Origin: a virus
Taxonomy: Duplodnaviria > Caudoviricetes
Direction: 5' to 3' (one strand)
Virus record (IMG/VR): IMGVR_UViG_3300047510_002055
Location: 1-52,535 of that record
Length of the DNA stretch: 52,535 nucleotides
In this document: in pieces, positions 6,142 through 33,835 of the stretch
Numbering within the stretch: the first letter of the stretch is position 1
Layout: each line of letters begins with the position of its first letter
Position numbers and translations under genes: made by a program
Notes under the pieces: model-generated
What the model was told of the DNA's origin: nothing
Database searches by the model: none
Seen by the model: the letters and a program-made list of their open reading frames with translations, nothing else

Positions 6142-6169
6142 ACTGTGGTTTACTCTTAAAATGTACTCA

Positions 6170-6179
6170 TATAAATATC
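6170..6179 (-). promoter_or_regulatory. Putative late-promoter motif (GATATTTATA)
   Basis: Intergenic, about 29 nt upstream of the ATG at 6141. Confidence 0.55.
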
Positions 6180-6210
6180 GTAGTAATAATAAATTACATC
6201 GTTTATACTA

Positions 6211-6834
6211 TTACGTAGAGGCAGAATAATTAAATACTTTATAATCGTCGTAGAATAAATACTGCACTAATTTTACAAAATTATCGTCAGTAAAGTTTAA
6301 ATGGCTCAATTTATTATCTTTTGTTACTCCAACTCGTTCTATTTTGCTTGTATCTATACCCAGATTCACGCTGAGCCATTCGTTAAACTCAGACAAATTC
6401 TCATATTTGAACCAGTGTACCTTTGGGTGATAGGCCCAATGTACTTGTGTTTTGAAGAAGGATTCGTGATAGCCGATGTAATCTACACCAAATATAGTTG
6501 TCAGCGGTATATCATCTTTAGGTATACAATTCTGATGAAAGTTGTCATACAAAAAGTTGACTAAGTTTTCTATGGTATCCGATGGCATTTTGCCAAATAT
6601 ATCTAGTTCTGCTAAATGTTTTAGTGCAGACACAAATCGAGTTAGAGGATTTCGTATTACAGTAAACCCCTTATATTGCTTTTGATGTTGCAAATATAAT
6701 TCGTGAAAAGTAAAATGAAAATGTAATTTAGGTTCGTCATATGCATAAAATAGCTTTGAATATGCTCTAGTTCCCGTCTTTGGTACCTTTACCCAAATCC
6801 ACTTTTGATTATTTATTTTTGAAGATATTATCAT
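6211..6834 (-). CDS. Sulfotransferase family 2-like protein
   Basis: 5'-PSB-like 'VKVPKTGTRA', 3'-PB-like 'FTVIRNPLTRFVSA', 'FKYENL' and C-terminal 'YDDYKVFNY'. Confidence 0.75.
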   Translation of the reverse strand: MIISSKINNQKWIWVKVPKTGTRAYSKLFYAYDEPKLHFHFTFHELYLQHQKQYKGFTVIRNPLTRFVSALKHLAELDIFGKMPSDTIENLVNFLYDNFHQNCIPKDDIPLTTIFGVDYIGYHESFFKTQVHWAYHPKVHWFKYENLSEFNEWLSVNLGIDTSKIERVGVTKDNKLSHLNFTDDNFVKLVQYLFYDDYKVFNYSAST

Positions 6835-7624
6835 GTGTAAGTCTGGTTATAATACTATCAGCAATTACCCGATGGCATAGTTTTGACGGATGGTAATCTC
6901 TCCGCGGTTTCTTAAAGTTAGCGTAATCAGTTGCGATAGTTAATTCAGGTCTAGAATTTTCGATTACTTGAAAAATTTCACCAGTGTTAAATATTAAGTT
7001 TTTAGAATCTGTTATAGATGTAGATCTGGGAATAGAAGCGAGTATTTCAGACAGTAATCCAAATTTTGGTTTTAAAGGATTATCCATTAAATCAGAAATA
7101 GTTTCGTACCTTTCACCTTTGTACTCCAATCGTATTAGTCTGTCCGTTAACCATGTATGTTCTTTTATGTATGGAAGGATAAAATTAGGCCAACACAAAA
7201 TATATATTGGAAACTTGTGTTCATACTTTTGTAAAAACTGTAATACTTGAAGAACGTCCGATATTTTAGACTGTTCCATATACTCATCTAGCGTAAGATT
7301 ATTTTGTTCTAACCACTTAACAAAAATCTTTTCGTGCCTCCTCATCACATCAATATGTGACGTTTGTGGTAACACTGGGCTATCACTTCTCATCCACATA
7401 GTAAACTGAAACACAAACGCATCCACCGTATCATTTTCAAAAAAAGATTCCCACCACTTAATAATTTGTGTGTGGGAACCCCCTCGGAATGATTGATTTA
7501 ATGACTCAACATTGAAATGAGATGCTACTAGGTGCGAAAATCTACTAGTTTCCTTATTTCCTTCATAGTAGTCTAGACCATCACCATAAGTAAACGAACA
7601 CCCTGCGAAACCAATTTTTTTCAT
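6809..7624 (-). CDS. SGNH/GDSL-like hydrolase or acyltransferase
   Basis: Block I-like 'FAGCSFTYGDG', block II-like 'NQSFRGGS' and block V 'DYHPS'. Confidence 0.6.
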   Translation of the reverse strand: MKKIGFAGCSFTYGDGLDYYEGNKETSRFSHLVASHFNVESLNQSFRGGSHTQIIKWWESFFENDTVDAFVFQFTMWMRSDSPVLPQTSHIDVMRRHEKIFVKWLEQNNLTLDEYMEQSKISDVLQVLQFLQKYEHKFPIYILCWPNFILPYIKEHTWLTDRLIRLEYKGERYETISDLMDNPLKPKFGLLSEILASIPRSTSITDSKNLIFNTGEIFQVIENSRPELTIATDYANFKKPRRDYHPSKLCHRVIADSIITRLTHDNIFKNK

Positions 7625-7637
7625 AAAATATTAAATA

Positions 7638-9146
7638 TTATGCACAGAAGCCACCGGCACAAAATGCACCTTTACCACAATCTGCATTATAATAGCATGC
7701 GGCAGTAACTACGGTTAACGTATCCACGCCATCAACTTCGGTGAGATATTTTTCAATTTCTACCGAATCTAATTCACTGGGAGATGTGTTATATACACCG
7801 ATACTATAGCGGGTATTGTATTCAGTACCTTCCGTATCAGTAGATATCACTTGTATAATATATTTCCCGACTTCAAAATCAGATGGAGACGTGATACTTA
7901 AAGTAAGGGTGTTACCAACATATGAACTACTTATCCACGAAAATGCTTTATATAATGTTGGACCTACGTTAGACATAATTGTATAATCTTCATGAGCTGC
8001 GGCGGCAATAGGTAACGTAGTGGTAAATGTAACTTGTGTTGTTACTCCACGTTGTACTGGAAACATAGATGCGAAGGGCTTATCCCAAATCTTAAGAGCG
8101 GTAATGAATGGAGCCTTAATCAAACGATTAGGTGTAGTACCATATACTGATTCATTACGGAACAACATATCTTCAAACGCAGAATCTAGAACTAGTGTTT
8201 GAATTTGCTGTGCTGTGAATGATGAGGCTTCTTTAATATACTGGGCTACAACACCAGAGACTATAGCCGCACTAACTGAAGTTCCTGATATTTCTCCGTA
8301 TCCATCGATATTTGCAACGTGTACCCCAATTCCAGGAGCAGTTATATCAACTTCGGGCCCCCAGTTACTTGATGCTCCTGTTGCCCAAGAAATAACTCTA
8401 TCATATAAGTCAGATGCAGCAACACCAATTACAGTATTTAAACCAACTGGAGACAGTGTATCTGCTGCAACTCCGGTGTTACCTGCTGCAGCAACGACTA
8501 CTAAGCCGGCATTTTGTAACTCTGTGACTTTATTATCTAGTAGTTGACTCTTTGGTACTGTCCATGAACAGTTTACAACCTTTACTCCAGAAGTCAATAA
8601 ATGGTCAGTCAACACTGCGTCAAACGCAGTTAGTAGTTGTCCGATTGTCACAGCCCCAAATGGTATCTTTACATTCTTAACAATTGCATTCTTAGACACA
8701 CCTCTGGTTTGTCCATTAATTAAACTTGCCATAGATGTACCGTGACTAATAGTATCGGTATAAAATCCATCGTAGGTATATAAATTTTCAATAGTAGAAC
8801 CAGTAAATTCTTCGTGATGTGCATTTATACCAGAATCCATAAGATATACCACTACACCATCTCCGTGGCTGATTGGATTGTAAATGGTTCCCATCGGTAA
8901 TGCATTAGTAACCAAACGAATTTGGTGCCAATAAGCTTGTGGAGTCACGGTGGTACCTGCATCCAACTCTACTAATACGACGCCGGAAATGGCTTCAATC
9001 GTTGCTGCCGATACATCATCGGCTACTTCCAATCCTATGACACGAACTTTTTCTAATGTATAAAGTACAGTTCCATAAGTACCCAACGTTTCAACTAATA
9101 GTGTAACATTGGTGTCCGAAGCATACGCGATATTAAATGTTTTCAT
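7638..9146 (-). CDS. Subtilisin-like S8 serine peptidase with N-terminal prodomain and C-terminal extension ending in a Cys-rich peptide
   Basis: Catalytic Asp 'YLMDSGI', His 'SHGTSMASLI', oxyanion 'AAAGN', 'VDITAPG' and Ser 'SGTSVSAAIVSG'. Confidence 0.9.
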   Translation of the reverse strand: MKTFNIAYASDTNVTLLVETLGTYGTVLYTLEKVRVIGLEVADDVSAATIEAISGVVLVELDAGTTVTPQAYWHQIRLVTNALPMGTIYNPISHGDGVVVYLMDSGINAHHEEFTGSTIENLYTYDGFYTDTISHGTSMASLINGQTRGVSKNAIVKNVKIPFGAVTIGQLLTAFDAVLTDHLLTSGVKVVNCSWTVPKSQLLDNKVTELQNAGLVVVAAAGNTGVAADTLSPVGLNTVIGVAASDLYDRVISWATGASSNWGPEVDITAPGIGVHVANIDGYGEISGTSVSAAIVSGVVAQYIKEASSFTAQQIQTLVLDSAFEDMLFRNESVYGTTPNRLIKAPFITALKIWDKPFASMFPVQRGVTTQVTFTTTLPIAAAAHEDYTIMSNVGPTLYKAFSWISSSYVGNTLTLSITSPSDFEVGKYIIQVISTDTEGTEYNTRYSIGVYNTSPSELDSVEIEKYLTEVDGVDTLTVVTAACYYNADCGKGAFCAGGFCA

Positions 9147-9162
9147 AAATGATTCCTAAAAA

Positions 9163-9738
9163 TTAGTTTACTACACTATCAGATATATTCAAAACCGATA
9201 CTGCCCATGCACGTTCCATACAAAAATAACAACCACCACAACTATCTATTCCAGTAAGACCACATGACCTTGTTTTTTTAAGTAAGTCAAGGATGTTTTC
9301 TTCAACATACATTCTTAATATTTCTACCTTGTCCATATCAATAAATGGACGTAAATGATATTCGTTTAGTGCTGGACCTCTAACTGGTGGTGTGTCACCT
9401 CGAATATACACTGTTGGTGTGAAATGTGTTACTACTTTATTACAACCAGTTAAAACTACACCTGGGTAAACACCCAATATTAGTTGTACTGCATCACGAA
9501 TAAATAAACCTTGTTGTTTTAAAGTACAAATTTTGTATCTTTCACCAAACTTATCTTGAAAATAATCGCTCAGTGGTTCAATTATCTGTTTAAAAGCATC
9601 GTCACTGTTGTTTATGAAATGACAAATAACAGGTTTATCGTATTGCTTAAGTACTAAATACGTCAACAGAGTACTGTCTACACCACCAGAGACAAGAATA
9701 TTAATATTTTCACAGTTTTCTGGTATAGATATGTTCAT
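9163..9738 (-). CDS. QueC-like PP-loop ATP pyrophosphatase (copy 2)
   Basis: PP-loop 'VSGGVDS', 'RPFIDMDKVEI' and Zn site 'TRSC...CGGCYFCMER'. I moved the start to ATG 9738 because the longer TTG start overlaps the upstream gene. Confidence 0.7.
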   Translation of the reverse strand: MNISIPENCENINILVSGGVDSTLLTYLVLKQYDKPVICHFINNSDDAFKQIIEPLSDYFQDKFGERYKICTLKQQGLFIRDAVQLILGVYPGVVLTGCNKVVTHFTPTVYIRGDTPPVRGPALNEYHLRPFIDMDKVEILRMYVEENILDLLKKTRSCGLTGIDSCGGCYFCMERAWAVSVLNISDSVVN

Positions 9739-9739
9739 A

Positions 9740-9749
9740 TATAAGTATC
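9740..9749 (-). promoter_or_regulatory. Putative late-promoter motif variant (GATACTTATA) abutting a start codon
   Basis: Reads CGATACTTATATATG, the same variant as at 49554. It lies in the 13-nt gap between genes. Confidence 0.4.
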
Positions 9750-9751
9750 GG

Positions 9752-10516
9752 TTATATACCCATTTCCTTCCGAATTTGGGTGGCGGAGATAGCCTCGGTT
9801 TGGGCGTCAAGGTTGATTTTCTCTACCTTATATCCCACATCCCGACCATAATATACCCCCGTAATATTCGGTACGGACATTATATAGTATTTTCCACGGT
9901 ACTTACCTTCCAACTTCTTGTGGATTCCTTCGATAACCTCCACATAATTGAATGGGTTCTTTTCGTCGGTATTATAGGTGTCTCTGACCGCAATAAGTAC
10001 CTGACCTTCCTTTTCCAAGATAGTCTCAAATAACTTCAAATGCCCATCGTGGAACGGTTGGAAACGACCAATCATCAGTCCCGTAGGATTCTGCCATCCA
10101 AAATGTACATCCTTCTTCTTGATTTCTTCAATAATGATATCCGCTTGGGTGTTGGGGTCTATCCAGCCGTTGACCAAGACATCTACCTCTGAGGGTTGTT
10201 CGAACACTCTATTTGTGTCCTCAAACCGGCCGGCGTCTATTGTATTCATAAACACAATAAAATCTGGTAAGAAGAGTTCACGGGTTTCTTCTGTGGGACA
10301 AACAAAATCTGCCACCGTGTGATGAGTCTCTACCATATCACAGAGTTCCCGCATCCGATAGGCTTGACGTTTACGGCCTGTATCGGAGAAGTCCCAATCG
10401 TTGAATTGTTTCCGTACTTCGTCTGCGTTGAAGTACGCAGCACCTAACTTTTCTGCCAATACTTTAGATAATGTAGTCTTTCCAGATCCAGGCAATCCCA
10501 TAACCAAAATTCTCAT
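9752..10516 (-). CDS. cysC: Adenylylsulfate (APS) kinase fused to a HxGH nucleotidyltransferase domain
   Basis: P-loop 'MGLPGSGKTT', 'FNADEVR', 'WDFS..GR.RQA' and 'DFVCPT'; second domain 'IGRFQPFHDGH...VPNIT...YGRDVGY...ISATQIR'. Confidence 0.75.
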   Translation of the reverse strand: MRILVMGLPGSGKTTLSKVLAEKLGAAYFNADEVRKQFNDWDFSDTGRKRQAYRMRELCDMVETHHTVADFVCPTEETRELFLPDFIVFMNTIDAGRFEDTNRVFEQPSEVDVLVNGWIDPNTQADIIIEEIKKKDVHFGWQNPTGLMIGRFQPFHDGHLKLFETILEKEGQVLIAVRDTYNTDEKNPFNYVEVIEGIHKKLEGKYRGKYYIMSVPNITGVYYGRDVGYKVEKINLDAQTEAISATQIRKEMGI

Positions 10517-10519
10517 ATA

Positions 10520-10741
10520 CTACTCCTTATCCTTATTAATGAGTCCAAATTTAATCCATCGGTACCAAATACGTTCGTGCATGTAATATAACACAGGTTT
10601 TACTATAAGTTCAACCCCCCCTGCAATAGATGATATATAAACACTACCTGTAAGGACATATCCAATTATTACGGTCTGTACACTTCCAAGTAGTCTATAC
10701 GATATTGCTTTGGCTATGTGTCGTTTTCTTTGAACCGTCAT
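10520..10741 (-). CDS. DUF2061-like small membrane protein
   Basis: 'RHIAKAISYR' and 'LYYMHERIW' pattern with two hydrophobic segments; this family is typically found next to sulfate-activation genes. Confidence 0.75.
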   Translation of the reverse strand: MTVQRKRHIAKAISYRLLGSVQTVIIGYVLTGSVYISSIAGGVELIVKPVLYYMHERIWYRWIKFGLINKDKE

Positions 10742-11316
10742 CTTGTACTTTTATCCTCTATTTGCAGTTCACTAAATGCCCAAATCCGTTCCCTACACTG
10801 CCAACAGGTATTACATCTACCAAATTCGCGTTCGGTACAAGTGTGTGTTAGTTCTACTAAATCCATAATATCGTATCGTACATACGCCTGTACAATGTCT
10901 GTTTTATAACAATCAAAAAATGGTTGACGATGTTTCGGATGATTTCTACGAACTCTGGTCGGACCACCAGGTAATATATCATCTGGATATACGTTTCCTG
11001 CAAAATATAAAATATCATAGTCAGTTTCTATTGATTTCAATGCCACATTTATTATGTTTGCATGATATATCAACGGATTTCCTATAAACTTTGGTTTCTT
11101 GACTTGCTTATCTAATTTTTGATTCACCCAGTCTATTATAGGTTGAACATAATGTTTAGCCCCATCCGTCTTTGGTATCGTGAACGTTATGATATTATCA
11201 ATGTTTTTTGCCAGTAAATATAATAATAATGTACTATCCATACCTCCAGATAACATTATACCTACTCTATCTGTTGAGTTGATTTTACTTAATCCCAATA
11301 ATTCTTCCGATATCAT
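10738..11316 (-). CDS. QueC-like PP-loop ATP pyrophosphatase (copy 1)
   Basis: 'MLSGGMDSTLL', 'QPFFDCYKTDIV' and 'THTCTE...RCNTCWQCRER'. Confidence 0.7.
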   Translation of the reverse strand: MISEELLGLSKINSTDRVGIMLSGGMDSTLLLYLLAKNIDNIITFTIPKTDGAKHYVQPIIDWVNQKLDKQVKKPKFIGNPLIYHANIINVALKSIETDYDILYFAGNVYPDDILPGGPTRVRRNHPKHRQPFFDCYKTDIVQAYVRYDIMDLVELTHTCTEREFGRCNTCWQCRERIWAFSELQIEDKSTR

Positions 11317-11960
11317 ACTATATATCCAAATAATTTGCTACTAATACTATCATACTGTTTGTTAAACTCATCTACATTTTTTAATACATCTACATCAGAA
11401 TAATATGGTGCTACTCTTTTGTAACGTGGGGTTACGTTTGGTAAATTTAATTTTTCTAATACATTTTCACTATTAGTAAAAATAAATTCATCATAAAACA
11501 CATAATCACATCGTTGTTCATATTCCATGTGAAGTTTATAATGTTCAAACCTTTCGGTTATTAATTCATCTGAAAAGATTAGTTTACCCACAAATGGTTC
11601 TCTAATATTTTTCCTATCTGTTCCATTACTATATGTTTTAAAATGTTTTTCTACCAATGCTTTTAGTAAACGTTTTCTGTAGTCTACTGGTTTTATGAAA
11701 ATTGTAGCGTAGTTTTCATTACCAATAAACCGTTCGGCTAACCACGGATAGTGATTAATCACCATCTTTACTGTTGTCGGTGGTTCCTTATTTACAAACC
11801 GTTCATACTTTTGTTTTATTGAATCTTCTGTATTTAATTCTGGATTGAATGGCTCTAAATCCGTACCGATATGTTGTGGGTCCATATACGATAAACTGCT
11901 GTTGATAAGACTATGTAAATAACGAGAACCAGTTCTTGGTAAATGAAAAATACAATACAT
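11313..11960 (-). CDS. Sulfotransferase-like P-loop protein
   Basis: N-terminal 'FHLPRTGSRYL' resembles the PAPS 5'-PSB loop; the rest is divergent. Confidence 0.5.
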   Translation of the reverse strand: MYCIFHLPRTGSRYLHSLINSSLSYMDPQHIGTDLEPFNPELNTEDSIKQKYERFVNKEPPTTVKMVINHYPWLAERFIGNENYATIFIKPVDYRKRLLKALVEKHFKTYSNGTDRKNIREPFVGKLIFSDELITERFEHYKLHMEYEQRCDYVFYDEFIFTNSENVLEKLNLPNVTPRYKRVAPYYSDVDVLKNVDEFNKQYDSISSKLFGYIV

Positions 11961-13411: not shown

Positions 13412-13412
13412 A

Positions 13413-23454: not shown

Positions 23455-24823
23455 TCAAATAAAAGTTTTCGTATTCAGGAAATGTTTCTAAGAAATTTGT
23501 TCCTCGACGTTTATCATATTCGGTAAACCAATTATAGAAATCTTTTCTACCTTCAAGTACCTTTTCGGGAGAATATTCTGTAGTCTCCATGTACTTAACA
23601 ACCCGTTTAAATCGTTCTAACTCTAATTCAGAAAACTTTGTTACATCGTTTTCATCAGTATGTTTTTCCATGTACTTAAGAGTTTCGTACATATATGGCA
23701 TGAACTCTTCTTTCGGTAAAATATTCATATCATATTGGAGTGGTTCTTTTAAATACGGTGTATCAAACCGAATTTTTCTTTCTAATGGTCTATCTGGAGT
23801 ATCCGCAATAATTTTATTATACTTCTTTCTCCATTGTAAAATCTTCTTTAGTAATGAAGTGAATGTAGTAACTGTTAGAATGTTAAACGTAATCATAAAG
23901 GTTACGTGACTTTTTGTCATTCTAACGTATGTGTCGAGATTCTTTTCCCAGACCTTTAAATCTAAACCAGTACGAATATATTCTGCTCTCGGTCCCCATG
24001 TGTCAATACTACTAAACAGTTTAAACTTCTTAATAGAGTTCGTTTCTAGTAAGTCGCGAACGTTTTCAGACAAACGTACAACCCATTCATTCTTTCCACC
24101 CAAATTACTATTAATGTTCAACTCTAAATTCGGCATAGGGTCATCTTTTAACGAATCCAACAAACGCCAAGTGCTCTTGTGCATCAATGGTTCACCACCA
24201 GTCAATCGAAGAATGTTCAATGTTTTACGGACATCTGGCCACCAACGCCACCACGCTTCCACATAGGGGTTGGTTTCTTCTTCGTACATGGTGAACCAGT
24301 CAATATCATTTCTGTGATTGTTCACCATGGTGTAAGGACCATGTTGTTGAATCTCACGATAGTACCGCGATGATGCTTTGGGATGACAGTAACCACACTT
24401 GAAGTTACATTCATTACCAAAACTCAATTCAATGTATTCAGGATTGATATTGAAATCCCAAGGACTATTTTTTATTTCATCAAATCTATCTTCTGTGTAA
24501 ATTGATGTTGTTCGAATATGTCTGTCGGAAACATAGTCTGGACCTAATGCTTCGATGTTCCAACAGTATTGACATCCACTAGGCTTTTCCCCGTTAAGCA
24601 TTTGTAAACGTTCTTGTTTCTTTTGGGGGGTATTGTGTAATGCCGACGGATTGTCTTTAAGTTCCTCAATAGGAATCTTATGTGGCGCAGGATGATAACA
24701 ACTATGCGTTTCTCCAGTCTGTAGGTAAATGGTTACGTGATGCCATTTTGCCATACAGAAGGTTGGACTCAGTTGATTTGTTATCGGTAGAATTCTTTTG
24801 ATTCTATCTAGTTCATAACTCAT
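23405..24823 (-). CDS. Radical SAM protein with N-terminal twitch-like domain (divergent subtype)
   Basis: 'FCMAKWHH...HSCYHP...GCQYCW', 'ECNFKCGYC' and 'LTGGEPL'. Confidence 0.9.
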   Translation of the reverse strand: MSYELDRIKRILPITNQLSPTFCMAKWHHVTIYLQTGETHSCYHPAPHKIPIEELKDNPSALHNTPQKKQERLQMLNGEKPSGCQYCWNIEALGPDYVSDRHIRTTSIYTEDRFDEIKNSPWDFNINPEYIELSFGNECNFKCGYCHPKASSRYYREIQQHGPYTMVNNHRNDIDWFTMYEEETNPYVEAWWRWWPDVRKTLNILRLTGGEPLMHKSTWRLLDSLKDDPMPNLELNINSNLGGKNEWVVRLSENVRDLLETNSIKKFKLFSSIDTWGPRAEYIRTGLDLKVWEKNLDTYVRMTKSHVTFMITFNILTVTTFTSLLKKILQWRKKYNKIIADTPDRPLERKIRFDTPYLKEPLQYDMNILPKEEFMPYMYETLKYMEKHTDENDVTKFSELELERFKRVVKYMETTEYSPEKVLEGRKDFYNWFTEYDKRRGTNFLETFPEYENFYLSGKDAPDSRLIQITRT

Positions 24824-25461
24824 ATTTTATAACCTATGTTCATAAATCGTGTGAACTGCGAACAGTCTAATTCACCTGTATACATACTCTTCTTAATTTT
24901 GTTGGTCTTAATAAACTCTTTAAGAGTTTTCGTAGTCCTAACGTGTTCACCCTTTAATTCTTCAAAGTTGTTTCCTTGTAATGCTATCAAAACGTTTTTA
25001 GGAACATTATCGAACCACGTATTAAATACTTTTTGGTTTATATGTTCTGTTGCTGTGTTAACTATTAAACAGACATCTTTAGGGTAGAACTTGAAGTTCT
25101 CCATCTTTTCTGTTATAAAACTAATACGTGTATCATAATTTGTCAAGGTTTGTCCTTGTTTAACACAGTTTGTATCTACATCAATACTATACACGGTTGT
25201 TATATCTGGAAAATTGTCACGTAAAAACATAGCGTTTAAACCATGCCATCCTCCAAATACATACGCAGAACCTTGAAGAGTTTTATTTTCTTTCTTAAGA
25301 ACATTTTTTAATTCTTCAACTAACCATATCTTACTTTTTAGTTGACTTTCCCAAAAACATTCTAATAAAGAATATCGTTCTTCGGCAGTTTCAGCAGAAC
25401 GTATGACATTCATCCACGTACCAACTCTATGTGCAGGTATACCGTAACTATGAAACGACAT
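24820..25461 (-). CDS. Class I SAM-dependent methyltransferase
   Basis: Motif I-like 'YVFGGWHG', acidic 'SIDVD' and 'LIVNTATEH'. Confidence 0.7.
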   Translation of the reverse strand: MSFHSYGIPAHRVGTWMNVIRSAETAEERYSLLECFWESQLKSKIWLVEELKNVLKKENKTLQGSAYVFGGWHGLNAMFLRDNFPDITTVYSIDVDTNCVKQGQTLTNYDTRISFITEKMENFKFYPKDVCLIVNTATEHINQKVFNTWFDNVPKNVLIALQGNNFEELKGEHVRTTKTLKEFIKTNKIKKSMYTGELDCSQFTRFMNIGYKI

Positions 25462-25462
25462 A

Positions 25463-25576
25463 TTAATTGTAAATAAACGGATCTCGTTTTCTTAATTCTT
25501 CTAGTCTACGTTTGTTTATATATTGAACGGTCCACTTATATACCATTTCAACCAACCTGTCTAAGATTTTTCTCAT
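25463..25576 (-). CDS. Small protein, 37 aa (MRKILDRLVEMVYKWTVQYINKRRLEELRKRDPFIYN)
   Basis: Below the ORF-track cutoff and translated by hand. It fills the gap exactly, 1 nt after the upstream stop and 1 nt before the next ATG. Confidence 0.75.
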   Translation of the reverse strand: MRKILDRLVEMVYKWTVQYINKRRLEELRKRDPFIYN

Positions 25577-25577
25577 A

Positions 25578-27800
25578 TTAGTTTCCCAGAACATTTAATG
25601 TTTTCTTTGTTTCTATTTCTTTGGGTTTAGTTACTCGTCTATACATTTCGAAATCACCCCAGTCCCCTTCTCCGGTATATCTGTAGGCGAATGAGAAGTC
25701 TATAGTTTTATTCAACATTTCTTCTTCTTGTAACAATAAACTAAAATCTACGTGGTTTCTACCTTCCATTCCCCATGATGGTTTTGCTAACTTTCTGGCT
25801 CTTACCGCGGTATTAGACATCATTCTACTATAGTCCTGTGCAAAGAACGGACCTTTTCTACCAGGTTGACCATTTGGTTGAAGTTGGTCTGGACGTTCTC
25901 TTGTATCTAAATGGTTGTCTACCTGTTCAAACTTCATATCAAAATCAGCTAACCATTTACCATCATCTGTAATTGAAAATCTGTATTCTGCGGTATACAT
26001 ACCTGGTCCAAATTGCCATCCGAATTCTTTAATATCAATCTCTGGATTAAACTTGACCACCGCATCATATCCACCACGTGTCTTCCACAACATTCTGAAG
26101 AATGGCCACATCTCGTTTACAAGAGTGTCTGCGAACGGATTAATATTAGGTTTGATTATTCTATAATCGAAATCTTCGTATTCAACTTCTCTCAAAGTAT
26201 TAGGATTATGTAGTTTAATACTATAATGTTCCTTTTCTAAATTGAAACGAATAGGATACCCGAATGGAGTTTCCGTACATCCACGCATAAAATCTAAGAA
26301 CATATGGAAAGTTTTCACACGATGCATTACATGAGTACCACCTTTTGTTAGGTCATGAGTAATCCAGTGTCCTTGATATTTGTGTGCACTTACATTAAAC
26401 TTGTGTGTGTTTTGCCCCACAATAGTTTCTGGACCCACTGCCATACCCACACCGGCACCCACGTTGTTGATGTTGTTGTTTCTCATTCTCCATAGGAATG
26501 TCATACTATCAGCAAAGTCTTGGAAATCTTCTGTGGGAAATCCCACAATCCAGTTGGTGGCGGCATAGATTCCCACTTCTTTACCATGACGGAAGTTGGC
26601 TTCCATTTCTTCAATTGTCACACGTTTGTCCATATCGTCTAGTACTCGTTGACTTCCAGACTCAATACCATAATTTAACATGATACATCCACCTGCCTTT
26701 AAGTCCTTAAAGTACTCCAAATCCATACGTCCATCACAACGACAATATCCTGTCCAATGAATCTTCAATTCCTTGGCTTCTACTGCCTTACAGAAGGCAC
26801 GAAGTTCTTTTAAGTTACCATTCACTAAACTATCGATGAACCAAATAACGTCTGTACCTTTATTATAATACAACCATTCAATTTCTTTTAATGCGTCCAC
26901 TGCACTCCGTTGACGATACTTCCAGAAATGAGTTTCTTCACAAAATGTACACTTTGCAGTACATCCACGACTAAACTGACTGTTAACTCCGTTTGGAATT
27001 TCATATTGCGAGAAATCAATACTTTCATAATCTGGCATAGGAAGATTATTGATTTGAATACGTTCTCCTTCTGGCTGAATCATAATGTATGGTTCTGTAC
27101 GAACCACACCATCTTCTACTTCCTGTAGGATGTCAAGAATAGCAGCTTCACCCTCACCTGCTACTACATAGTCATAATATGGTTCTATTTCAAACCAACT
27201 CTTTTTTGTATTACTTCCACCGATGGCAATCTTAATATCAGGTCTACGTCTTTTAATTTCTTGACACATCCACTTCGTGGGTTCTGCACTAATATAATAC
27301 ATAGTAAACCCAACAATCTGTGGGTCGAACTCTAAAATTTCATCTATGGTTTTTAGTAATAATGGTTCTAATACAGGATGAATGTCCTGCATATACGTTT
27401 CGGCTAACCAATGCCAACTCGCACTTGGATCCCACAAACGGAATGGGAGTTTTTGATTAGGCCACCAATCATTTTTAAACTCAGTGTACGCCCTCATATT
27501 TAAATCATAAACTTTTGTTTCGTACCCTGCTGTTTTAGCAATACCACTTAATAATGCTAAATTATATGGTGGGAAATGTGGTGCCCACTCTGGACATAAT
27601 ACTAATGCAAGTTTTGTTTTACGTGTCTTATAATCGATATAAACCGGTGTAACGTTGTGTTGTTCGAACGGTTTAGCATATGGTTTAATAGCCTCGAACA
27701 TTGCTACGTGTTTAGCGTCAGCAATATCTGGAGCTAACGCTTCTCTAGCTTTAGCTTCTTTCGCTAATTTAGTAAGATTAAAATCAATAGGTTCAGTCAT
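25578..27800 (-). CDS. Cobalamin (B12)-binding radical SAM protein (class B methylase-like)
   Basis: N-terminal B12 domain 'PPYNLALL...IVGFT...IAIGG...GEGE', 'SRGCTAKCTFC', 'YGIESGSQRVLDDMDK' and 'WIVGFPTE'. Confidence 0.9.
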   Translation of the reverse strand: MTEPIDFNLTKLAKEAKAREALAPDIADAKHVAMFEAIKPYAKPFEQHNVTPVYIDYKTRKTKLALVLCPEWAPHFPPYNLALLSGIAKTAGYETKVYDLNMRAYTEFKNDWWPNQKLPFRLWDPSASWHWLAETYMQDIHPVLEPLLLKTIDEILEFDPQIVGFTMYYISAEPTKWMCQEIKRRRPDIKIAIGGSNTKKSWFEIEPYYDYVVAGEGEAAILDILQEVEDGVVRTEPYIMIQPEGERIQINNLPMPDYESIDFSQYEIPNGVNSQFSRGCTAKCTFCEETHFWKYRQRSAVDALKEIEWLYYNKGTDVIWFIDSLVNGNLKELRAFCKAVEAKELKIHWTGYCRCDGRMDLEYFKDLKAGGCIMLNYGIESGSQRVLDDMDKRVTIEEMEANFRHGKEVGIYAATNWIVGFPTEDFQDFADSMTFLWRMRNNNINNVGAGVGMAVGPETIVGQNTHKFNVSAHKYQGHWITHDLTKGGTHVMHRVKTFHMFLDFMRGCTETPFGYPIRFNLEKEHYSIKLHNPNTLREVEYEDFDYRIIKPNINPFADTLVNEMWPFFRMLWKTRGGYDAVVKFNPEIDIKEFGWQFGPGMYTAEYRFSITDDGKWLADFDMKFEQVDNHLDTRERPDQLQPNGQPGRKGPFFAQDYSRMMSNTAVRARKLAKPSWGMEGRNHVDFSLLLQEEEMLNKTIDFSFAYRYTGEGDWGDFEMYRRVTKPKEIETKKTLNVLGN

Positions 27801-27802
27801 AA

Positions 27803-28912
27803 TTACCCGTGAAGTTCTTCAAATCGTTCTTGTAACCAGTTCCAATCCACCGTTTTTTGTAATTCATCTGGATTCTTTACATACTGTTCTGCGTACTGTA
27901 TACCGTCTTCCGCACCCTTCAATACCCACTCTGCGTTCGGACCTTCGGCAAAGGCGGTCCATCGTTGTAACCACAAATATGCATCTGGGGTATGTGCCGT
28001 AGATAATTTAACTGCTTCACGAAATGCAGTTCTCCAGGCTTCAAATGGTGACGTTGCAAAATATGCCTCACTAACCTTCATTGGAATAGTAACGGTCTTG
28101 CTGAATTGTGTGAAATCCAATCCGAAGTTTTTTGGAGTATTTAACACCAAATGACTATTGTAACAGACAATACCCATATGCCCATACTCTAAACGATTAC
28201 TCATATTTTTTGCATGAAATACTATATGAGCATCTGTAACCGTTTCAACTGGATAATTAAATACATTTAAATCAGTTATGTAATTTTTACCAGTTACTAC
28301 AAAGAATTGCCTTACGTCCTTAGCTAAATCAACACAACGATGGAACATCTTTCTTCGTCCATCTATTCCATCTATACGAATTGCACGTGGATATAAGCTG
28401 GTTAGATGCTTCCAATTTTCATCTGCGTTACTTTCTCCATTACTGACAAAGAACACAGGAACATTTTTGTCTTTTGGTCTTTTTGCCGTTGGTACAGTTA
28501 GCACTGCAGATGCTGGATTGACTTCAACAATCATTTTTTCTGACCACTTCCACGGGTCATCACTTTCTTTCTTCATCTTTTCAATAATCTTCCGTTCTCC
28601 CGCCCACCCTGCAATAAACACTTGTTCAGAATCTTTACGAACGACAAACAATACTGGACCGGAAATATGTTCCCAAGAAACTCCATTAATACACCTATAC
28701 AGTTTCTTTTCTGCAAGAGGTTGGTCAACGATCTGAACATAATCGAATACCGATAGTTCTTTTTCACCTGCTTGTGCCCACCCACCAGCGTCTTTCACCG
28801 TTTCCATATAGTCGGTAAACCATCCCAAACTACGTACCCACGGTTTGGTTTCGACTACCCAATATTTCTTAAAGAGGTCACTGTGTGCCAACCACGATTC
28901 GTTATTTAGCAT
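27803..28912 (-). CDS. Putative glycosyltransferase-like protein (divergent GT-A) with extra N-terminal domain
   Basis: 'VFFVSNGESNADENW...RIDGIDG...FFVVTGKN...LEYGHMG...SPFEAWRTAFREAVKL'. No canonical DxD is visible. Confidence 0.45.
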   Translation of the reverse strand: MLNNESWLAHSDLFKKYWVVETKPWVRSLGWFTDYMETVKDAGGWAQAGEKELSVFDYVQIVDQPLAEKKLYRCINGVSWEHISGPVLFVVRKDSEQVFIAGWAGERKIIEKMKKESDDPWKWSEKMIVEVNPASAVLTVPTAKRPKDKNVPVFFVSNGESNADENWKHLTSLYPRAIRIDGIDGRRKMFHRCVDLAKDVRQFFVVTGKNYITDLNVFNYPVETVTDAHIVFHAKNMSNRLEYGHMGIVCYNSHLVLNTPKNFGLDFTQFSKTVTIPMKVSEAYFATSPFEAWRTAFREAVKLSTAHTPDAYLWLQRWTAFAEGPNAEWVLKGAEDGIQYAEQYVKNPDELQKTVDWNWLQERFEELHG

Positions 28913-29618
28913 TCTTCTTTACCTTTTTTGTAGGTTTTGTTTTTTCTAAATGACGTTTTACCCGTTGTTCGTCATTGGTACCGATACTTGGACCAAAAGC
29001 CCATTGTCCTACATGACGGACCTGAAAACTAAGATTCATATCTACTAGTATTTTATATCCTGCGTTACGTAACTTACCTTGAAAATAAAAATCTTCACCA
29101 TGCCAGTCTCCGTCCTTAAACTCAAAATTGAAATATGGACGATTGATTTTAGTTAAGACTTCTGTTTTCATCAACATACATCCCATTCCAATACCTTCGA
29201 CTTCTTGTAACTCTTGGTCGGCTTCCAGAGGTAACCAGTTTTCCCAATCTTCACGTTCTGGATATGCTACTGTTTGAAGCGGGACTGACCGTTTCATATA
29301 ATTAGAACAGACAATATCGACGTTATGTCCCATCAACCGCATAGCAGTGGTACTGGGGAACATCATATCGGAATCTAACCACAATGCATAATCCGCGTTT
29401 ATCGCAAGTGCCTGTCGTGCTAACTTCTCACGTTGAGACAAGAGAATGGTACTTTGGTCATATATTACGTGTACATCAATACCTGCCATCGTAGTGGTCT
29501 TAACCAACTCCACCAATGATGCGGTAAACAAACTGTAGGTATATTCTCTGCATGGGACCAGAATTGCTAATTTCGTTGGTCTGGTTTGCCAAATCGTCAA
29601 ATCGTAAATATTTTTCAT
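28902..29618 (-). CDS. Glycosyltransferase, GT-A fold (GT2-like)
   Basis: 'LWLDSDMMFP' (DxD), 'GIGMGCMLMK', 'GEDFYF' and 'VRHVG'. Confidence 0.8.
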   Translation of the reverse strand: MKNIYDLTIWQTRPTKLAILVPCREYTYSLFTASLVELVKTTTMAGIDVHVIYDQSTILLSQREKLARQALAINADYALWLDSDMMFPSTTAMRLMGHNVDIVCSNYMKRSVPLQTVAYPEREDWENWLPLEADQELQEVEGIGMGCMLMKTEVLTKINRPYFNFEFKDGDWHGEDFYFQGKLRNAGYKILVDMNLSFQVRHVGQWAFGPSIGTNDEQRVKRHLEKTKPTKKVKKNAK

Positions 29619-30076
29619 ACGCCAGCCACTCCAGATGCAGCTAATGTTGCTGCTTGGCTGGTGATTTCACGAATCATAGTGACAATTTCTTGTACTCGTT
29701 TGACAAAGAGTTGATAATCTGCCAATGGAAACTGTGTGACAGTATTTAATGTATCGATACTGTATTTATCGAAGATGAGTATTTCCATAGCCCCTTGACG
29801 TGCCCATTTTTCGATTAACGCAAATCGTGTCGTTTGCGTTTCACCGTTTAATAAGTTCAATAAATGTTGGGGATTATGTTGGGCGAGAATACCTTCTAAG
29901 AACTTAATACGTTCCGGCCATTCACCCTTTTCTTTAAGATATTGTAATTCATATAGTAATTCAATCAATACCTTTTTGTCATATCCAATAGAAACCCATC
30001 GGACGTACTTTTCTTCGTATTCCGATGGGTTAGTATTAATTGCTGCCAATAATGTATCAAACGTTATGTGTTCCAT
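29615..30076 (-). CDS. Hypothetical helical protein, first gene of the enzyme cluster
   Basis: ATG with AAGGGG RBS; ATGA overlap with the glycosyltransferase gene. Confidence 0.7.
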   Translation of the reverse strand: MEHITFDTLLAAINTNPSEYEEKYVRWVSIGYDKKVLIELLYELQYLKEKGEWPERIKFLEGILAQHNPQHLLNLLNGETQTTRFALIEKWARQGAMEILIFDKYSIDTLNTVTQFPLADYQLFVKRVQEIVTMIREITSQAATLAASGVAGV

Positions 30077-30109
30077 AATATGTAACCCCTTATTAAATAA
30101 CCGTACTTA

Positions 30110-30138
30110 AATATATATTATACTACTAAATTTGTCAA
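30110..30138 (-). promoter_or_regulatory. Sigma70-like promoter TTGACA-N17-TATATT
   Basis: Perfect -35 (30138-30133), 17-nt spacer and -10 TATATT (30115-30110), about 34 nt before the first cluster gene. Confidence 0.7.
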
Positions 30139-30147
30139 GTCCCCAAA

Positions 30148-30348: not shown

Positions 30349-30384
30349 AGTTTATCCTATTAACCCTGTATAATTCCCTACTAA

Positions 30385-30394
30385 TATAAATATT
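30385..30394 (-). promoter_or_regulatory. Putative late-promoter motif (AATATTTATA)
   Basis: Intergenic, about 37 nt upstream of the ATG at 30348. Confidence 0.5.
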
Positions 30395-30406
30395 TGAATG
30401 ATACTC

Positions 30407-31528: not shown

Positions 31529-31529
31529 G

Positions 31530-31868: not shown

Positions 31869-31870
31869 AG

Positions 31871-33831: not shown

Positions 33832-33835
33832 TCCA

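What the first reader, a model, noticed from the sequence alone, without database searches (positions are those of the whole stretch)
6211..30076. Phage-encoded ~24-kb tailoring-enzyme cluster embedded in the tail-fibre region: candidate virion-decoration (glycan or RiPP-like) system
Seen in sequence: 25 co-oriented, mostly overlapping or abutting genes follow one near-perfect sigma70 promoter. They encode 5 SPASM/twitch radical SAM enzymes, 1 B12 radical SAM, 4 glycosyltransferase-like proteins, a UDP-sugar dehydrogenase, a NodU-type carbamoyltransferase, a methyltransferase, 2 QueC-like enzymes, 2 sulfotransferase-like proteins, an APS kinase fusion, 3 SGNH-like proteins and a subtilisin, and are flanked on both sides by virion genes. 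Established: carbamoylation (NodU/TobZ), sulfation with PAPS supply (NodH/NodPQ), O-acylation, uronic-acid formation, twitch radical SAM sugar oxidation (BtrN) and B12-dependent methylation (GenK) are tailoring steps of Nod-factor and aminoglycoside sugars, and giant viruses glycosylate their own fibrils. Inference: the phage builds a heavily modified glycan or other adduct on its Ser/Thr-rich fibres or capsid. Alternatives are remodelling of the host surface, DNA hypermodification, or a small molecule. I know of no characterised phage pathway with this composition.
Basis: partly seen in the sequence, partly recalled or inferred. Interest (0 to 1): 0.9.

Follow-up and report, generated by a model that had tools for sequence, protein, structure and literature searches.

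The report
Phage radical-SAM sugar-tailoring gene island
An uncultured freshwater phage carries, next to its tail-fibre genes, a block of sugar-transferring and iron-sulfur "radical SAM" enzymes plus a tiny conserved peptide; it most likely builds a heavily edited sugar decoration, but nobody has yet seen the product or its target.

Summary
There are 25 co-oriented minus-strand ORFs at 6211-30076, behind the best sigma70-like site of the region. Most of the stated enzyme families were verified.

The block is not one unit. Genes g01-g16 (11960-30076) form a module that recurs in 28 IMG/VR loci. It holds four N-terminal-twitch radical SAM paralogs (NCBIfam NF033640), a fifth radical SAM, a B12 radical SAM, GT-A and GT-B glycosyltransferases, a UDP-sugar dehydrogenase, SGNH-like proteins and a carbamoyltransferase. 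Genes g17-g23 (sulfotransferase-like, PP-loop, kinase-NMNAT, subtilase) are inherited separately. In relatives they sit among DNA ligase, PhoH and gp32 genes.

I confirmed here a lead from earlier scan reports. A 43-aa ORF (25463-25594) belongs to a peptide family with an invariant C-terminal DPFIY. This peptide tracks the carbamoyltransferase across records, and a complex prediction gave weak support for binding.

There are no membrane, flippase or polymerase genes. The best reading is a soluble glycan-building and glycan-editing pathway. The acceptor is unproven. Virion fibres are favoured; the peptide, the host envelope and DNA remain rivals.

The scan found this operon class before on other DNA (125 notes in at least 109 genomes). 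In print I found only a passing mention of it, in the hypervariable host-recognition region of pelagimyophages.

The parts
30110..30138 (-). sigma70-like site TTGACA-17-TATATT ahead of g01
   Evidence: 11 of 12, the best site in 25400-34000. No site of 11/12 in 5900-25800. Function untested.
29615..30076 (-). g01, 153 aa, unknown; travels with g02
   Evidence: No Pfam or NCBIfam hit. Homologs sit beside g02 homologs in L027 (59%) and L106.
28902..29618 (-). g02, GT-A-like (weak)
   Evidence: Anp1, 26.9 bits, below the cut-off of 28.8. The DxD-type stretch aligns to the GT8 family DxD, but weakly.
27803..28912 (-). g03, GT-A fold glycosyltransferase (C-terminal 150-369)
   Evidence: AlphaFold2 mean pLDDT 69, with the C-terminal part at 72-93. 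The top 10 Foldseek hits are glycosyltransferases; nucleotidyltransferases of the same fold follow further down the list. Homologs lie directly before the g06 type in most related loci.
25578..27800 (-). g04, B12-binding radical SAM (class B methyltransferase-like)
   Evidence: PF02310 40.3 bits and PF04055 65.3 bits. Best NCBIfam models are PhpK, ApyD and C-methyltransferase types, all far below their cut-offs.
25463..25594 (-). 43-aa peptide with invariant C-terminal DPFIY plus one residue
   Evidence: an HMM separates 19 such ORF tails (E <= 1.5e-12) from the next hit (E 0.53) among 66,552 tails. It overlaps the end of g04 by 17 nt and stops 1 nt before the g05 start. It co-occurs with the carbamoyltransferase. 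Complex prediction: weak support.
24820..25461 (-). g05, SAM methyltransferase-like (weak)
   Evidence: Methyltransf_25, 19.4 bits against a cut-off of 27. Conserved directly after the peptide in group A loci.
23405..24823 (-). g06, N-terminal-twitch radical SAM; the most conserved subtype
   Evidence: NF033640, 326 bits. 60-64% identity even in distant locus groups.
20937..23454 (-). g07 and g08, N-terminal-twitch radical SAM paralogs
   Evidence: NF033640, 377 and 375 bits. Paralogs at 35% identity. Invariant Cys at 21, 40, 81, 84 and a CX3CX2C at 137-144.
19978..20958 (-). g09, radical SAM with a C-terminal Cys cluster motif
   Evidence: PF04055, 33.1 bits. Invariant C26, C30, C33 and C262, C281, C304, C309, C311. 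Co-occurs with N_Twi genes also in Bdellovibrionota loci.
19098..20075 (-). g10, SGNH-like (motif level); the true start is probably Met28 at 19994
   Evidence: Invariant GCS...E.G...D..H in 8 homologs. Orthologs begin near residue 28.
17795..19111 (-). g11, GT-B fold glycosyltransferase; multi-copy family in related loci
   Evidence: AlphaFold2 pLDDT 85.6. Foldseek: a PBCV NY2A glycosyltransferase, OtsA and other GT-B enzymes, E from 3.8e-5, probability 1.0, TM 0.34-0.41.
16978..17802 (-). g12, SGNH-like (motif level)
   Evidence: Invariant GCS.T ... G.GN ... D.HP in 8 homologs. No Pfam hit.
15743..16990 (-). g13, UDP-glucose/GDP-mannose dehydrogenase family
   Evidence: PF03721 69.1 bits and PF00984 60.5 bits.
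14632..15765 (-). g14, protein with a GT-B-like C-terminal half
   Evidence: hhalign to the g11 family: 90.5%, E 1.4e-6, 115 columns.
13413..14639 (-). g15, N-terminal-twitch radical SAM paralog
   Evidence: NF033640, 347 bits.
11960..13411 (-). g16, NodU/TobZ-type carbamoyltransferase
   Evidence: PF16861 188.5 bits and PF02543 141.4 bits. 50.7% identical to the Ralstonia phage RsoM2USA protein.
9752..11960 (-). Accessory block a: g17 (sulfotransferase-like lead), g18 (QueC/Cap9-like PP-loop), 73-aa hydrophobic ORF, g19 (P-loop kinase plus NMNAT-like nucleotidyltransferase)
   Evidence: The same order is found in L139/L145.
6211..9810 (-). Accessory block b: g20 (PP-loop), g21 (subtilase S8 with Cys-rich tail), g22 (SGNH-like motif), g23 (Sulfotransfer_2)
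   Evidence: g20 lies directly before g21 in 33 of 36 loci; the other 3 are cut at the contig end.

Best explanation
The region is a composite accessory island. It sits at a fixed site, between the tail-fibre genes and a conserved backbone block that ends in an SNF2 helicase, in a family of uncultured freshwater myoviruses of roughly 180 kb.

Its larger part, g01-g16 (about 18 kb), is one functional module. It is a soluble, cytoplasmic pathway that assembles an oligosaccharide from nucleotide sugars, using GT-A and GT-B transferases. One building block is made by the UDP-sugar 6-dehydrogenase. The pathway then edits the sugars in several ways:
- O-carbamoylation (NodU/TobZ-type enzyme, working with the DPFIY peptide as subunit, carrier or substrate);
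- acyl ester handling (SGNH-like proteins);
- methylation (SAM-dependent and B12 radical SAM enzymes);
- radical redox chemistry by four N-terminal-twitch radical SAM paralogs plus a fifth radical SAM. By analogy with the twitch enzyme BtrN, this would be dehydrogenation or epimerisation of sugar carbons.

The acceptor is inferred, not shown. I favour the phage's own fibre or other virion proteins.

The smaller part, g17-g23, is a separately inherited set of accessory genes. Its link to the glycan is unproven.

Shown here: gene content, folds, synteny, the peptide family and its co-occurrence with the carbamoyltransferase. Inferred: every chemical step and the acceptor.
For: Module reality. 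g03-g16 homologs recur in the same order in 28 IMG/VR loci at 25-100% identity. The g07 type alone has 2680 homologs at E <= 1e-10.

Sugar chemistry:
- GT-B fold for g11 and GT-A fold for g03.
- UDP-sugar dehydrogenase and carbamoyltransferase pass curated cut-offs.
- Relatives add two GT8 (glycogenin-like) genes and NAD-dependent epimerase/dehydratases.

Soluble pathway. No ORF of the cluster has more than one hydrophobic segment. Only 3 of 637 ORFs in the radical-SAM-centred loci have three or more, and none of these lies inside a cluster.

Fibre linkage:
- The window has fibre-like genes directly upstream.
- 15 of 28 related loci carry the c7 or c30 family upstream. One tested member of each has a Peptidase_G2 IMC-type region and tail-fibre or virion PHROG hits.
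- L106 repeats the order fibre C-terminus, g01, g02 ... g11, g13, g16.

Twitch-type auxiliary site. Four invariant Cys precede the CX3CX2C motif.

Peptide and carbamoyltransferase:
- Among 13 records where both were looked for, both are present in 8, neither in 4, the carbamoyltransferase alone in 1, and the peptide alone in 0.
- They are 18 nt apart in G002.
- Complex prediction gave weak support. Score 0.54 (runs 0.54, 0.57, 0.51); best of 3 controls 0.01; partner pLDDT at least 63; runs agree in at least 60% of contacts. The mark was reached by 58 of 80 solved complexes and 2 of 110 mismatched pairs. At 0.60 or under it was reached by only 7 of those 80 and by both passing mismatches.

Composite nature:
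- g20-g21 with g22/g23 is conserved in 36 loci.
- In relatives this block is separated from g16 by DNA ligase, Zn ribbon, PhoH and PD-(D/E)XK genes and followed by a cell-wall hydrolase and gp32.
- It is present in G010, which has no N_Twi gene.
Against: - No product or acceptor has been measured anywhere.
- Fibre adjacency is not universal. The nearest relatives L005, L008 and L010 have IMPDH-family and other genes upstream instead. The pelagimyophage paper describes the fibre region as a hypervariable zone where accessory genes collect (PMC7029224), so position alone is weak evidence.
- The module has its own sigma70-like site rather than the motif seen before flanking genes. This fits early expression as well as virion decoration.
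- N_Twi plus g09-type radical SAM pairs also lie in Bdellovibrionales chromosomes among Lon, patatin, aminotransferase and nuo genes, with no glycosyltransferases or fibres. The radical chemistry is therefore not tied to fibres or even to glycans.
- SGNH, methyltransferase and g02 assignments are below family thresholds.
- Foldseek TM-scores for g11 and g03 are low (0.25-0.41), although the hit lists are uniform.
- The peptide is absent from 5 of 9 N_Twi-bearing records searched whole, so it cannot be the general scaffold.
Confidence: 0.45

Rival explanations
1. The product is a peptide-derived glycoconjugate or small molecule, with RiPP-like or mycofactocin-like logic. The DPFIY peptide is the ribosomal precursor. 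Radical SAM enzymes cross-link or trim its conserved C-terminus. The carbamoyltransferase, methyltransferases and glycosyltransferases then decorate it. The product acts as a cofactor, signal or toxin rather than as a virion decoration.
For: - The peptide family has an invariant C-terminal DPFIY plus one residue, while the rest of the peptide and the enzymes diverge. It is always on the cluster strand and tightly coupled to cluster genes.
- It co-occurs with the carbamoyltransferase, and there is weak complex support (score 0.54, best control 0.01).
- Ralstonia phage RsoM2USA has a small set without recognised glycosyltransferases: one N_Twi gene, the peptide and the carbamoyltransferase within 5 kb.
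- Bdellovibrionales chromosomal radical SAM pairs lack glycosyltransferases.
- Mycofactocin combines a short peptide, a SPASM radical SAM enzyme, a glycosyltransferase (MftF) and a methyltransferase (MftM). For PMC7491314 and PMC9679996 I saw only the listing and the start of the abstracts.
Against: - The peptide is missing from 5 of 9 N_Twi-bearing records searched whole, including G008 with 7 N_Twi genes and a carbamoyltransferase.
- No RiPP recognition element or known maturase model passes its cut-off; all RiPP maturase NCBIfam hits are far below theirs.
- The subtilase belongs to the separately inherited block.
- The peptide could equally be a small subunit of the carbamoyltransferase.
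Confidence: 0.22
2. The module remodels the host cell envelope during infection (lipopolysaccharide, capsule or glycoprotein sugars). This would block superinfection by competing phages, as proposed for glycosyltransferases in the pelagimyophage host-recognition cluster.
For: [quoted passage not shown] The module has its own sigma70-like site. GT8 is the commonest glycosyltransferase family in those phages, and GT8-like genes occur in relatives of this module.
Against: - No membrane-embedded transferase, flippase, polymerase or exporter is present in the window or inside the related clusters. From recall, the known serotype-converting phage systems use membrane proteins.
- An 18-kb investment with five or more radical SAM enzymes is large for transient surface masking.
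- The paper gives no experiment for this reading.
Confidence: 0.15
3. The module hypermodifies phage DNA with an edited glycan, in the way of glycosylated hydroxymethyl-pyrimidines.
For: T4 beta-glucosyltransferase appears among the GT-B structural matches of g11 (ranks 26, 45, 48; E 1.3e-3 to 2.5e-3). [quoted passage not shown] QueC-like genes are in the island.
Against: - The window has no hydroxymethylase, TGT/DpdA or other base-modifying gene among the ORFs scanned.
- A thymidylate-synthase-family gene was found in 1 of 5 related records, far from the cluster.
- Trehalose-phosphate synthases and a chlorovirus glycosyltransferase outrank the DNA enzyme.
- The QueC-like genes belong to the separate block and match only the PP-loop and the C-terminal zinc region.
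- All the related records are fragments (29-67% complete), so absence is weak evidence.
Confidence: 0.05
4. There is no single product. The 24 kb is an accumulation of unrelated auxiliary genes in a hypervariable region, and only small sub-sets work together.
For: g17-g23 is inherited apart from g01-g16. Relatives interleave IMPDH/GMP-reductase-family, UvdE, DNA ligase and PhoH genes. Module content varies from 2 to 9 N_Twi copies.
Against: The order g03, g06, further N_Twi genes, g09, GT-B, SGNH-like is kept across locus groups whose proteins are only 25-60% identical. It recurs in metagenome-assembled bacterial contigs. Genes overlap or abut throughout.
Confidence: 0.1

Closest known systems
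NCBIfam NF033640, N_Twi_rSAM (twitch domain-containing radical SAM protein)
   Same: g06, g07, g08 and g15 score 326-377 bits against a cut-off of 170, over the full model length. They have the CX3CX2C motif and four invariant N-terminal Cys.
   Different: The family has no characterised member that I could find (literature searches). Here it comes as four specialised paralogs inside a glycosyltransferase operon.
Host recognition cluster of pelagimyophages and cyanomyophages (Zaragoza-Solas et al. 2020, PMC7029224)
   Same: [quoted passage not shown]
   Different: That paper describes marine T4-like phages of SAR11. It gives annotation only, with no dissection of the cassette, no peptide and no experiment. 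This window is from freshwater metagenomes, and its sheath is closest to a Microcystis phage (46%) and Flavobacterium phages (40%). The supplements of that paper were not available to me.
BtrN, the twitch radical SAM 2-deoxy-scyllo-inosamine dehydrogenase (recalled, not fetched)
   Same: A fully Cys-ligated auxiliary cluster site with spacing of the C-x18-C-x40-C-x2-C type (for this family; BtrN spacing recalled). The context is sugar tailoring.
   Different: The domain order is reversed: here the twitch comes before the radical SAM core. No significant sequence match to a BtrN model was returned. The substrate is unknown.
Virus-encoded virion glycosylation (chlorovirus PBCV-1 A64R; mycobacteriophage capsid and tail-tube glycans)
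   Same: Soluble viral glycosyltransferases act in the cytoplasm. A PBCV-1 capsid-glycosylating GT-A and a PBCV NY2A GT-B are among the structural matches. Mycobacteriophage virion glycans are cited in PMC12619734 (passage).
   Different: To my knowledge (recalled) those systems have no radical SAM arrays, no carbamoyltransferase and no conserved peptide. Virion glycosylation is not shown here.
Mycofactocin pathway (MftA peptide, MftC radical SAM/SPASM, MftE peptidase, MftF glycosyltransferase, MftM methyltransferase)
   Same: It combines a short peptide with a conserved C-terminal aromatic motif, an auxiliary-cluster radical SAM enzyme, a glycosyltransferase and a methyltransferase (PMC7491314 and PMC9679996, abstract starts only).
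   Different: The mycofactocin maturase model scores only 20-31 bits here against a cut-off of 265. No RRE or MftB-like gene was found. The peptide is absent from many clusters.
NodU/TobZ O-carbamoyltransferases
   Same: g16 matches both Pfam domains strongly. 'Nol-like carbamoyltransferase' genes are common in cyanophage records (141 records matched).
   Different: Here and in relatives the enzyme is paired with a DPFIY peptide. The cyanophage-type locus L002 (35% identical) has no such peptide within the 15 kb held on each side.

Membership tests
NF033640 N_Twi_rSAM | Whole-protein score above the curated cut-off (170 bits) over the full model | tested here: met
   g06 326.3, g07 377.3, g08 374.7 and g15 346.9 bits. 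g09 scores only 45.6 bits and is not a member.
NF033640 N_Twi_rSAM | Radical SAM CX3CX2C motif preceded by an N-terminal Cys-rich twitch domain | tested here: met
   Invariant C21, C40, C81, C84 and C137, C141, C144 across 20 sequences. The Pfam SPASM hit lies at residues 14-85, ahead of the Radical_SAM hit.
RiPP biosynthetic cluster | A precursor peptide gene with a conserved core next to the maturases | tested here: inconclusive
   A candidate exists (25463-25594). It is absent from 5 of 9 N_Twi-bearing records searched whole. No modification has been shown.
RiPP biosynthetic cluster | A maturase with a peptide-recognition element, or membership of a known maturase family | tested here: not met
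   All RiPP maturase NCBIfam hits are far below their cut-offs, for example StsB 41 vs 625 and mycofactocin 30.9 vs 265. No RRE-type Pfam hit.
Lipid-linked surface polysaccharide locus (O-antigen or capsule type) | Membrane initiating transferase, flippase, polymerase or exporter | tested here: not met
   A hydropathy scan found no polytopic ORF in the window cluster. 3 of 637 ORFs in the related loci have three or more segments, and none lies in a cluster. No such Pfam family was returned.
Virus-encoded virion glycosylation system | A glycan shown on a virion protein and dependent on the viral transferases | not testable with these tools
   Only position beside fibre genes and soluble GT folds are available.
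PAPS synthase (APS kinase fused to ATP sulfurylase) | An ATP sulfurylase-type second domain | tested here: not met
   The C-terminal domain of g19 is nearest to NMN adenylyltransferases (PDB 2qjt at 3.6e-7; NCBIfam NMNAT models). No sulfurylase hit was returned for that domain; the one SAT/APS kinase fusion listed (2gks) matches the kinase part only.
PAPS synthase (APS kinase fused to ATP sulfurylase) | An APS kinase domain | tested here: inconclusive
   PF01583 scores 23.2 bits against a cut-off of 21.1. The best PDB kinase hit is an APS kinase at 1.7e-6. Generic P-loop kinase models score alike.
7-deazaguanine (QueC) pathway | A full-length QueC match, with QueD, QueE, FolE or a transglycosylase nearby | tested here: not met
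   g18 and g20 match only QueC positions 155-210 plus the PP-loop. TIGR00364 scores 28-31 bits against a cut-off of 150. None of the partner families was found in the window.
DNA glycosyl-hypermodification system | A hydroxymethylase or other enzyme that makes the modifiable base | tested here: inconclusive
   None was found in the window. PF00303 is present in 1 of 5 related records. The Tet_JBP search rang nowhere, controls included. All records are fragments.

The most novel reading that the evidence does not exclude
The DPFIY peptide is a ribosomally made scaffold or carrier. On it the phage builds a carbamoylated, radical-edited glycopeptide: a phage-encoded glyco-RiPP or cofactor-like molecule, made by a radical SAM family (N-terminal twitch) whose chemistry has never been assayed. 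Alternatively, the same enzymes perform radical editing of sugars already attached to virion fibres. Either would be a kind of viral post-translational chemistry not described so far.
Probability: 0.2. Interest if true: 0.88.

Novelty: new variant of a known kind. Interest (0 to 1): 0.72.

Why it matters
Phage receptor-binding structures decide host range. A phage-made, chemically edited glycan on them, or on the host surface, would add an unstudied layer to phage-host recognition in lakes and oceans.

The N-terminal-twitch radical SAM family is large. It has 2680 homologs at E <= 1e-10 and is virus-dominated in the Atlas clusters. It occurs in tandem arrays of up to eight or nine copies. It has no known reaction.

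Linking the family to glycosyltransferases, a carbamoyltransferase and a conserved 33-43-residue peptide gives concrete substrates to test. Cultured carriers are rare: only 3 of 50,697 deposited phage records have a homolog. That explains why the system has escaped study.

Tried and rejected
- Megablast of both halves of the window against 50,697 phage records found nothing.
I therefore could not read the precomputed neighbourhoods of the long contigs that carry N_Twi homologs.
- A single-protein scan of genome contigs found no relative. The alignment-based scan did.
- PDB profile searches for the g11 family (A1), the g03 family (A2), the c15 family (A7) and the g23 family (A8) gave nothing significant. 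The folds of g11 and g03 had to come from AlphaFold2.
- hhalign of the c15 family against the window's 373-aa fibre-side protein gave no relation. GT8 family against g02 matched only the DxD stretch. g23 family against g17, and g12 family against g22, matched only the N-terminal motifs.
- I first dismissed the 43-aa ORF as not conserved, because the g04-g05 gaps in relatives looked too short. That was wrong. The ORF overlaps g04, and an HMM finds it in those loci.
- I considered a signal anchor on g10 and rejected it. The hydrophobic N-terminus precedes the start used by orthologs.
- The Tet_JBP search rang nowhere, controls included, so it is uninformative.
- No RNA holder was listed for the 9.9-kb stretch.
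- The literature searches returned no paper on the function of N-terminal-twitch radical SAM enzymes or on this operon. The only mention I found of radical SAM cassettes in a phage fibre region is PMC7029224 (passages). Paper supplements were closed and may hold gene tables that bear on this.
- I did not build a paralog tree. The two structure jobs went to g11 and g03, so g01, g10, g12, g14, g17 and g22 remain unfolded.
- Correction to my notebook: checkpoint entry 3 says 21 peptide tails. The count is 19.

Full report
WHAT IS THERE. The window is a whole 52.5-kb contig, and every substantial ORF is on the minus strand. In the direction of transcription it reads as follows:
- tail sheath and tail tube (PHROG hits);
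- several large proteins without hits;
- two roughly 1000-aa fibre proteins and smaller fibre-like or virion proteins;
- a 66-aa ORF;
- the 25 ORFs of the finding (30076 down to 6211);
- four ORFs without any family;
- an SNF2 helicase and a T4_baseplate-family protein.

One search gives 23 ORFs of at least 80 aa in the finding. One search adds a 43-aa ORF (25463-25594) and a 73-aa ORF (10520-10741) that fill the only real gaps. It lies at 30138-30110 with 11 of 12 matches and is the best site of both scans. Total counts of such sites do not exceed the shuffles.

THE ENZYMES.
- Four proteins (g06, g07, g08, g15) are clear members of NCBIfam NF033640. This family has a twitch-type four-Cys domain ahead of the radical SAM core, not behind it.
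- g09 is a fifth radical SAM with invariant C-terminal cysteines.
- g04 is a B12-binding radical SAM.
- g13 (UDP-sugar dehydrogenase family) and g16 (NodU/TobZ-type carbamoyltransferase) pass curated cut-offs. So does g21, a subtilase.
- Two unknowns were folded with alignments built from related loci. g11 is a GT-B glycosyltransferase (pLDDT 85.6). The C-terminal two-thirds of g03 is a GT-A glycosyltransferase.
- g14 shares the C-terminal GT-B half of g11.
- g02 has only a sub-threshold GT-A hit.
- g10, g12 and g22 show SGNH-type motifs but match no family.
- g23 passes Sulfotransfer_2. g17 has only a loop motif and language-model neighbours, of which 14-75% of members carry sulfotransferase families.
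- g18 and g20 are PP-loop enzymes with a QueC-like zinc tail. Their nearest solved relative is Cap9.
- g19 joins a P-loop kinase, nearest to APS kinases, to a nucleotidyltransferase that is nearest to NMN adenylyltransferases, not to ATP sulfurylase.

THE ISLAND IS COMPOSITE. A scan of IMG/VR with g07 returned 28 loci. Across them the order is kept while identities fall to 25-60%: g03-type GT-A, g06-type N_Twi, further N_Twi copies (2 to 9), g09 type, GT-B copies, SGNH-like genes, often the dehydrogenase and the B12 enzyme. Other locus groups add two GT8 (glycogenin-like) genes just upstream and NAD-dependent epimerase/dehydratases.

None of g17-g23 appeared in those windows except g18 or g19 in three loci. 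A second scan, with the subtilase, returned 36 loci.
- g20 lies directly before g21 in 33 of them. The other three are cut at the contig end.
- g22 and g23 usually follow.
- In many of these phages the block is separated from the carbamoyltransferase by DNA ligase, a zinc ribbon, PhoH and a PD-(D/E)XK nuclease. It is followed by a cell-wall hydrolase and gp32.
- One 84-kb record has the subtilase pair but no N_Twi gene and no peptide.

Downstream of the island, the backbone up to the SNF2 helicase is 92-100% identical in several contigs whose island content differs. So the island sits at a fixed site and varies. [quoted passage not shown]

A CONSERVED PEPTIDE. Earlier reports of this scan, on other genomes, mention a near-invariant 33-36-residue peptide beside the carbamoyltransferase. 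I tested this here.
- The 43-aa ORF at 25463-25594 ends in DPFIY plus one residue. Similar short ORFs occur on the cluster strand in related loci.
- An HMM built from seeds picked by motif finds 19 ORF tails at E <= 1.5e-12. The next hit is at E 0.53, among 66,552 stop-to-stop tails from 153 held sequences.
- DPFIY is invariant in 16 aligned members, while the rest of the peptide is 28-62% identical.
- The ORF lies directly before the g05-type gene in the window's group. In other groups it lies directly before the carbamoyltransferase: 18 nt apart in G002 and one gene away in Ralstonia phage RsoM2USA.
- In whole-record searches the peptide is present in 4 of 9 N_Twi-bearing records.
- Counting every record where both were looked for: peptide and carbamoyltransferase together in 8, neither in 4, carbamoyltransferase alone in 1, peptide alone in 0. 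These records are related, so the counts are not independent events.
- A complex prediction of g16 with the peptide gave weak support. The score was 0.54 and the best of 3 controls 0.01. Partner pLDDT was at least 63 and the runs agreed in at least 60% of contacts. The mark was reached by 58 of 80 solved complexes and 2 of 110 mismatches. At 0.60 or under it was reached by only 7 of the 80 and by both passing mismatches.

WHERE ELSE THE FAMILY OCCURS.
- Only 3 of 50,697 deposited phage records have an N_Twi homolog: RsoM2USA and Vibrio phages K566 and K567. K566 carries four copies.
- The big protein collection holds 2680 homologs at E <= 1e-10. The nearest Atlas clusters are 89-100% viral.
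- An alignment-based scan of one genome per prokaryote species gave 78 loci, mostly Bdellovibrionota metagenome-assembled genomes. They carry tandem arrays of up to eight copies.
- Some short marine or lake contigs there repeat the phage layout and may be phage DNA in bins. One example is L106, with a fibre C-terminus followed by g01, g02 ... g11, g13, g16.
- In Bdellovibrionales chromosomes, two N_Twi genes and a g09-type gene lie among Lon, patatin, class V aminotransferase and nuo genes.
- Near-identical DNA of the window's cluster is held by freshwater metagenome runs of 10 studies other than the two possible sources.

HOW IT MOST LIKELY WORKS. All cluster proteins look soluble. Neither the window's cluster nor the related clusters contain a polytopic membrane protein. 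Several glycosyltransferases, a nucleotide-sugar dehydrogenase and, in relatives, epimerase/dehydratases point to the assembly of an oligosaccharide in the cytoplasm. The carbamoyltransferase, SGNH-like proteins, methyltransferase-like protein and B12 radical SAM point to decoration of that sugar.

The four N_Twi paralogs have a fully Cys-ligated auxiliary site of the kind that BtrN uses as an electron sink (recalled). They are best guessed to oxidise or epimerise particular sugar positions.

The acceptor is open. I favour virion fibre proteins for three reasons. The module lies directly behind fibre genes in the window, in 15 of 28 related loci and in L106. The pathway is soluble. Viral precedents exist: a chlorovirus capsid transferase is among the fold matches, and mycobacteriophage virion glycans are cited in PMC12619734.

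Against this, the fibre region is a known collecting place for accessory genes. The closest relatives have other genes upstream. The module has its own sigma70-like site. The radical SAM pair exists in bacteria without fibres or transferases.

The peptide keeps a glyco-peptide product alive as the main rival. Host envelope remodelling, the reading of PMC7029224, and DNA glycan hypermodification remain possible but lack their defining parts.

NOVELTY. The families are known as models, and the presence of radical SAM cassettes in fibre-linked regions has been mentioned in print. The scan itself has met this operon class many times. No reaction, product or target is known for any member. The pairing of the carbamoyltransferase with a DPFIY peptide is, as far as my four searches show, not in print. 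I file it as a new variant of a known kind, namely virus-encoded glycan machinery in the host-recognition region. There is a real chance that the chemistry is new.

Noticed in passing
window 7638-7772 (C-terminus of g21) and L109-L143: The subtilase ends in a Cys-rich tail: 4 or 6 Cys in the last 45 residues, in 21 of 21 distinct full-length homologs. The tail is otherwise hypervariable. It is also present in L124, whose record has no N_Twi gene.
   Followed up: partly
window 7638-9810; L109-L143: A Cap9/QueC-like PP-loop gene lies directly before the subtilase in 33 of 36 loci, often between PhoH/nuclease genes and a cell-wall hydrolase and gp32. This is a tight pair of unknown role that looks independent of the glycan module.
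   Followed up: partly
window 1215-1222, 6170-6177, 30385-30392, 48076-48083: TATAAATA on the plus strand (TATTTATA on the coding strand) lies in intergenic spacers 20-40 nt ahead of minus-strand gene starts in 4 of its 5 occurrences. Two of them bracket the island. The total count is not above chance (5 vs 7.4 in shuffles).
   Followed up: partly
L031-L108, for example L039, L082, L063: In cellular assemblies the N_Twi family is concentrated in Bdellovibrionota, with up to eight tandem copies. In Bdellovibrionales chromosomes it sits with a g09-type radical SAM among housekeeping genes.
   Followed up: partly
L040 7733-8035; L048 11267-11563: Pseudobdellovibrio-type MAG contigs encode a homolog of the C-terminal domain of the window's long fibres (32-38% identity over about 115 aa), beside N_Twi and B12 radical SAM genes.
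   Followed up: no
L005, L008, L010, L147 (for example L008 4579-5637): An IMPDH/GMP-reductase-family gene lies just upstream of the B12 radical SAM or the peptide in close relatives, next to g19 homologs and, in L147, a UvdE endonuclease.
   Followed up: no
L001 (Ralstonia phage RsoM2USA) 11811-16572: A cultured jumbo phage holds what looks like a minimal set: one N_Twi gene, two unknown genes of about 283 aa, the DPFIY peptide (unannotated, 14026-14148) and the carbamoyltransferase.
   Followed up: partly
window 30148-30348: A 66-aa Gly/Ser/Thr/Asn-rich ORF sits between the last fibre-side gene and the sigma70-like site, preceded by the TATAAATA motif. I did not test its conservation.
   Followed up: no
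window 19994-20075: The longest-ORF start of g10 adds 27 hydrophobic residues that orthologs lack. The real start is probably Met28 at 19994.
   Followed up: yes
window 14000-23900: Near-identical DNA (43-66% of sampled 31-mers) is held by freshwater metagenome runs, and some labelled fungus metagenome, from 10 studies besides the two possible sources.
   Followed up: no
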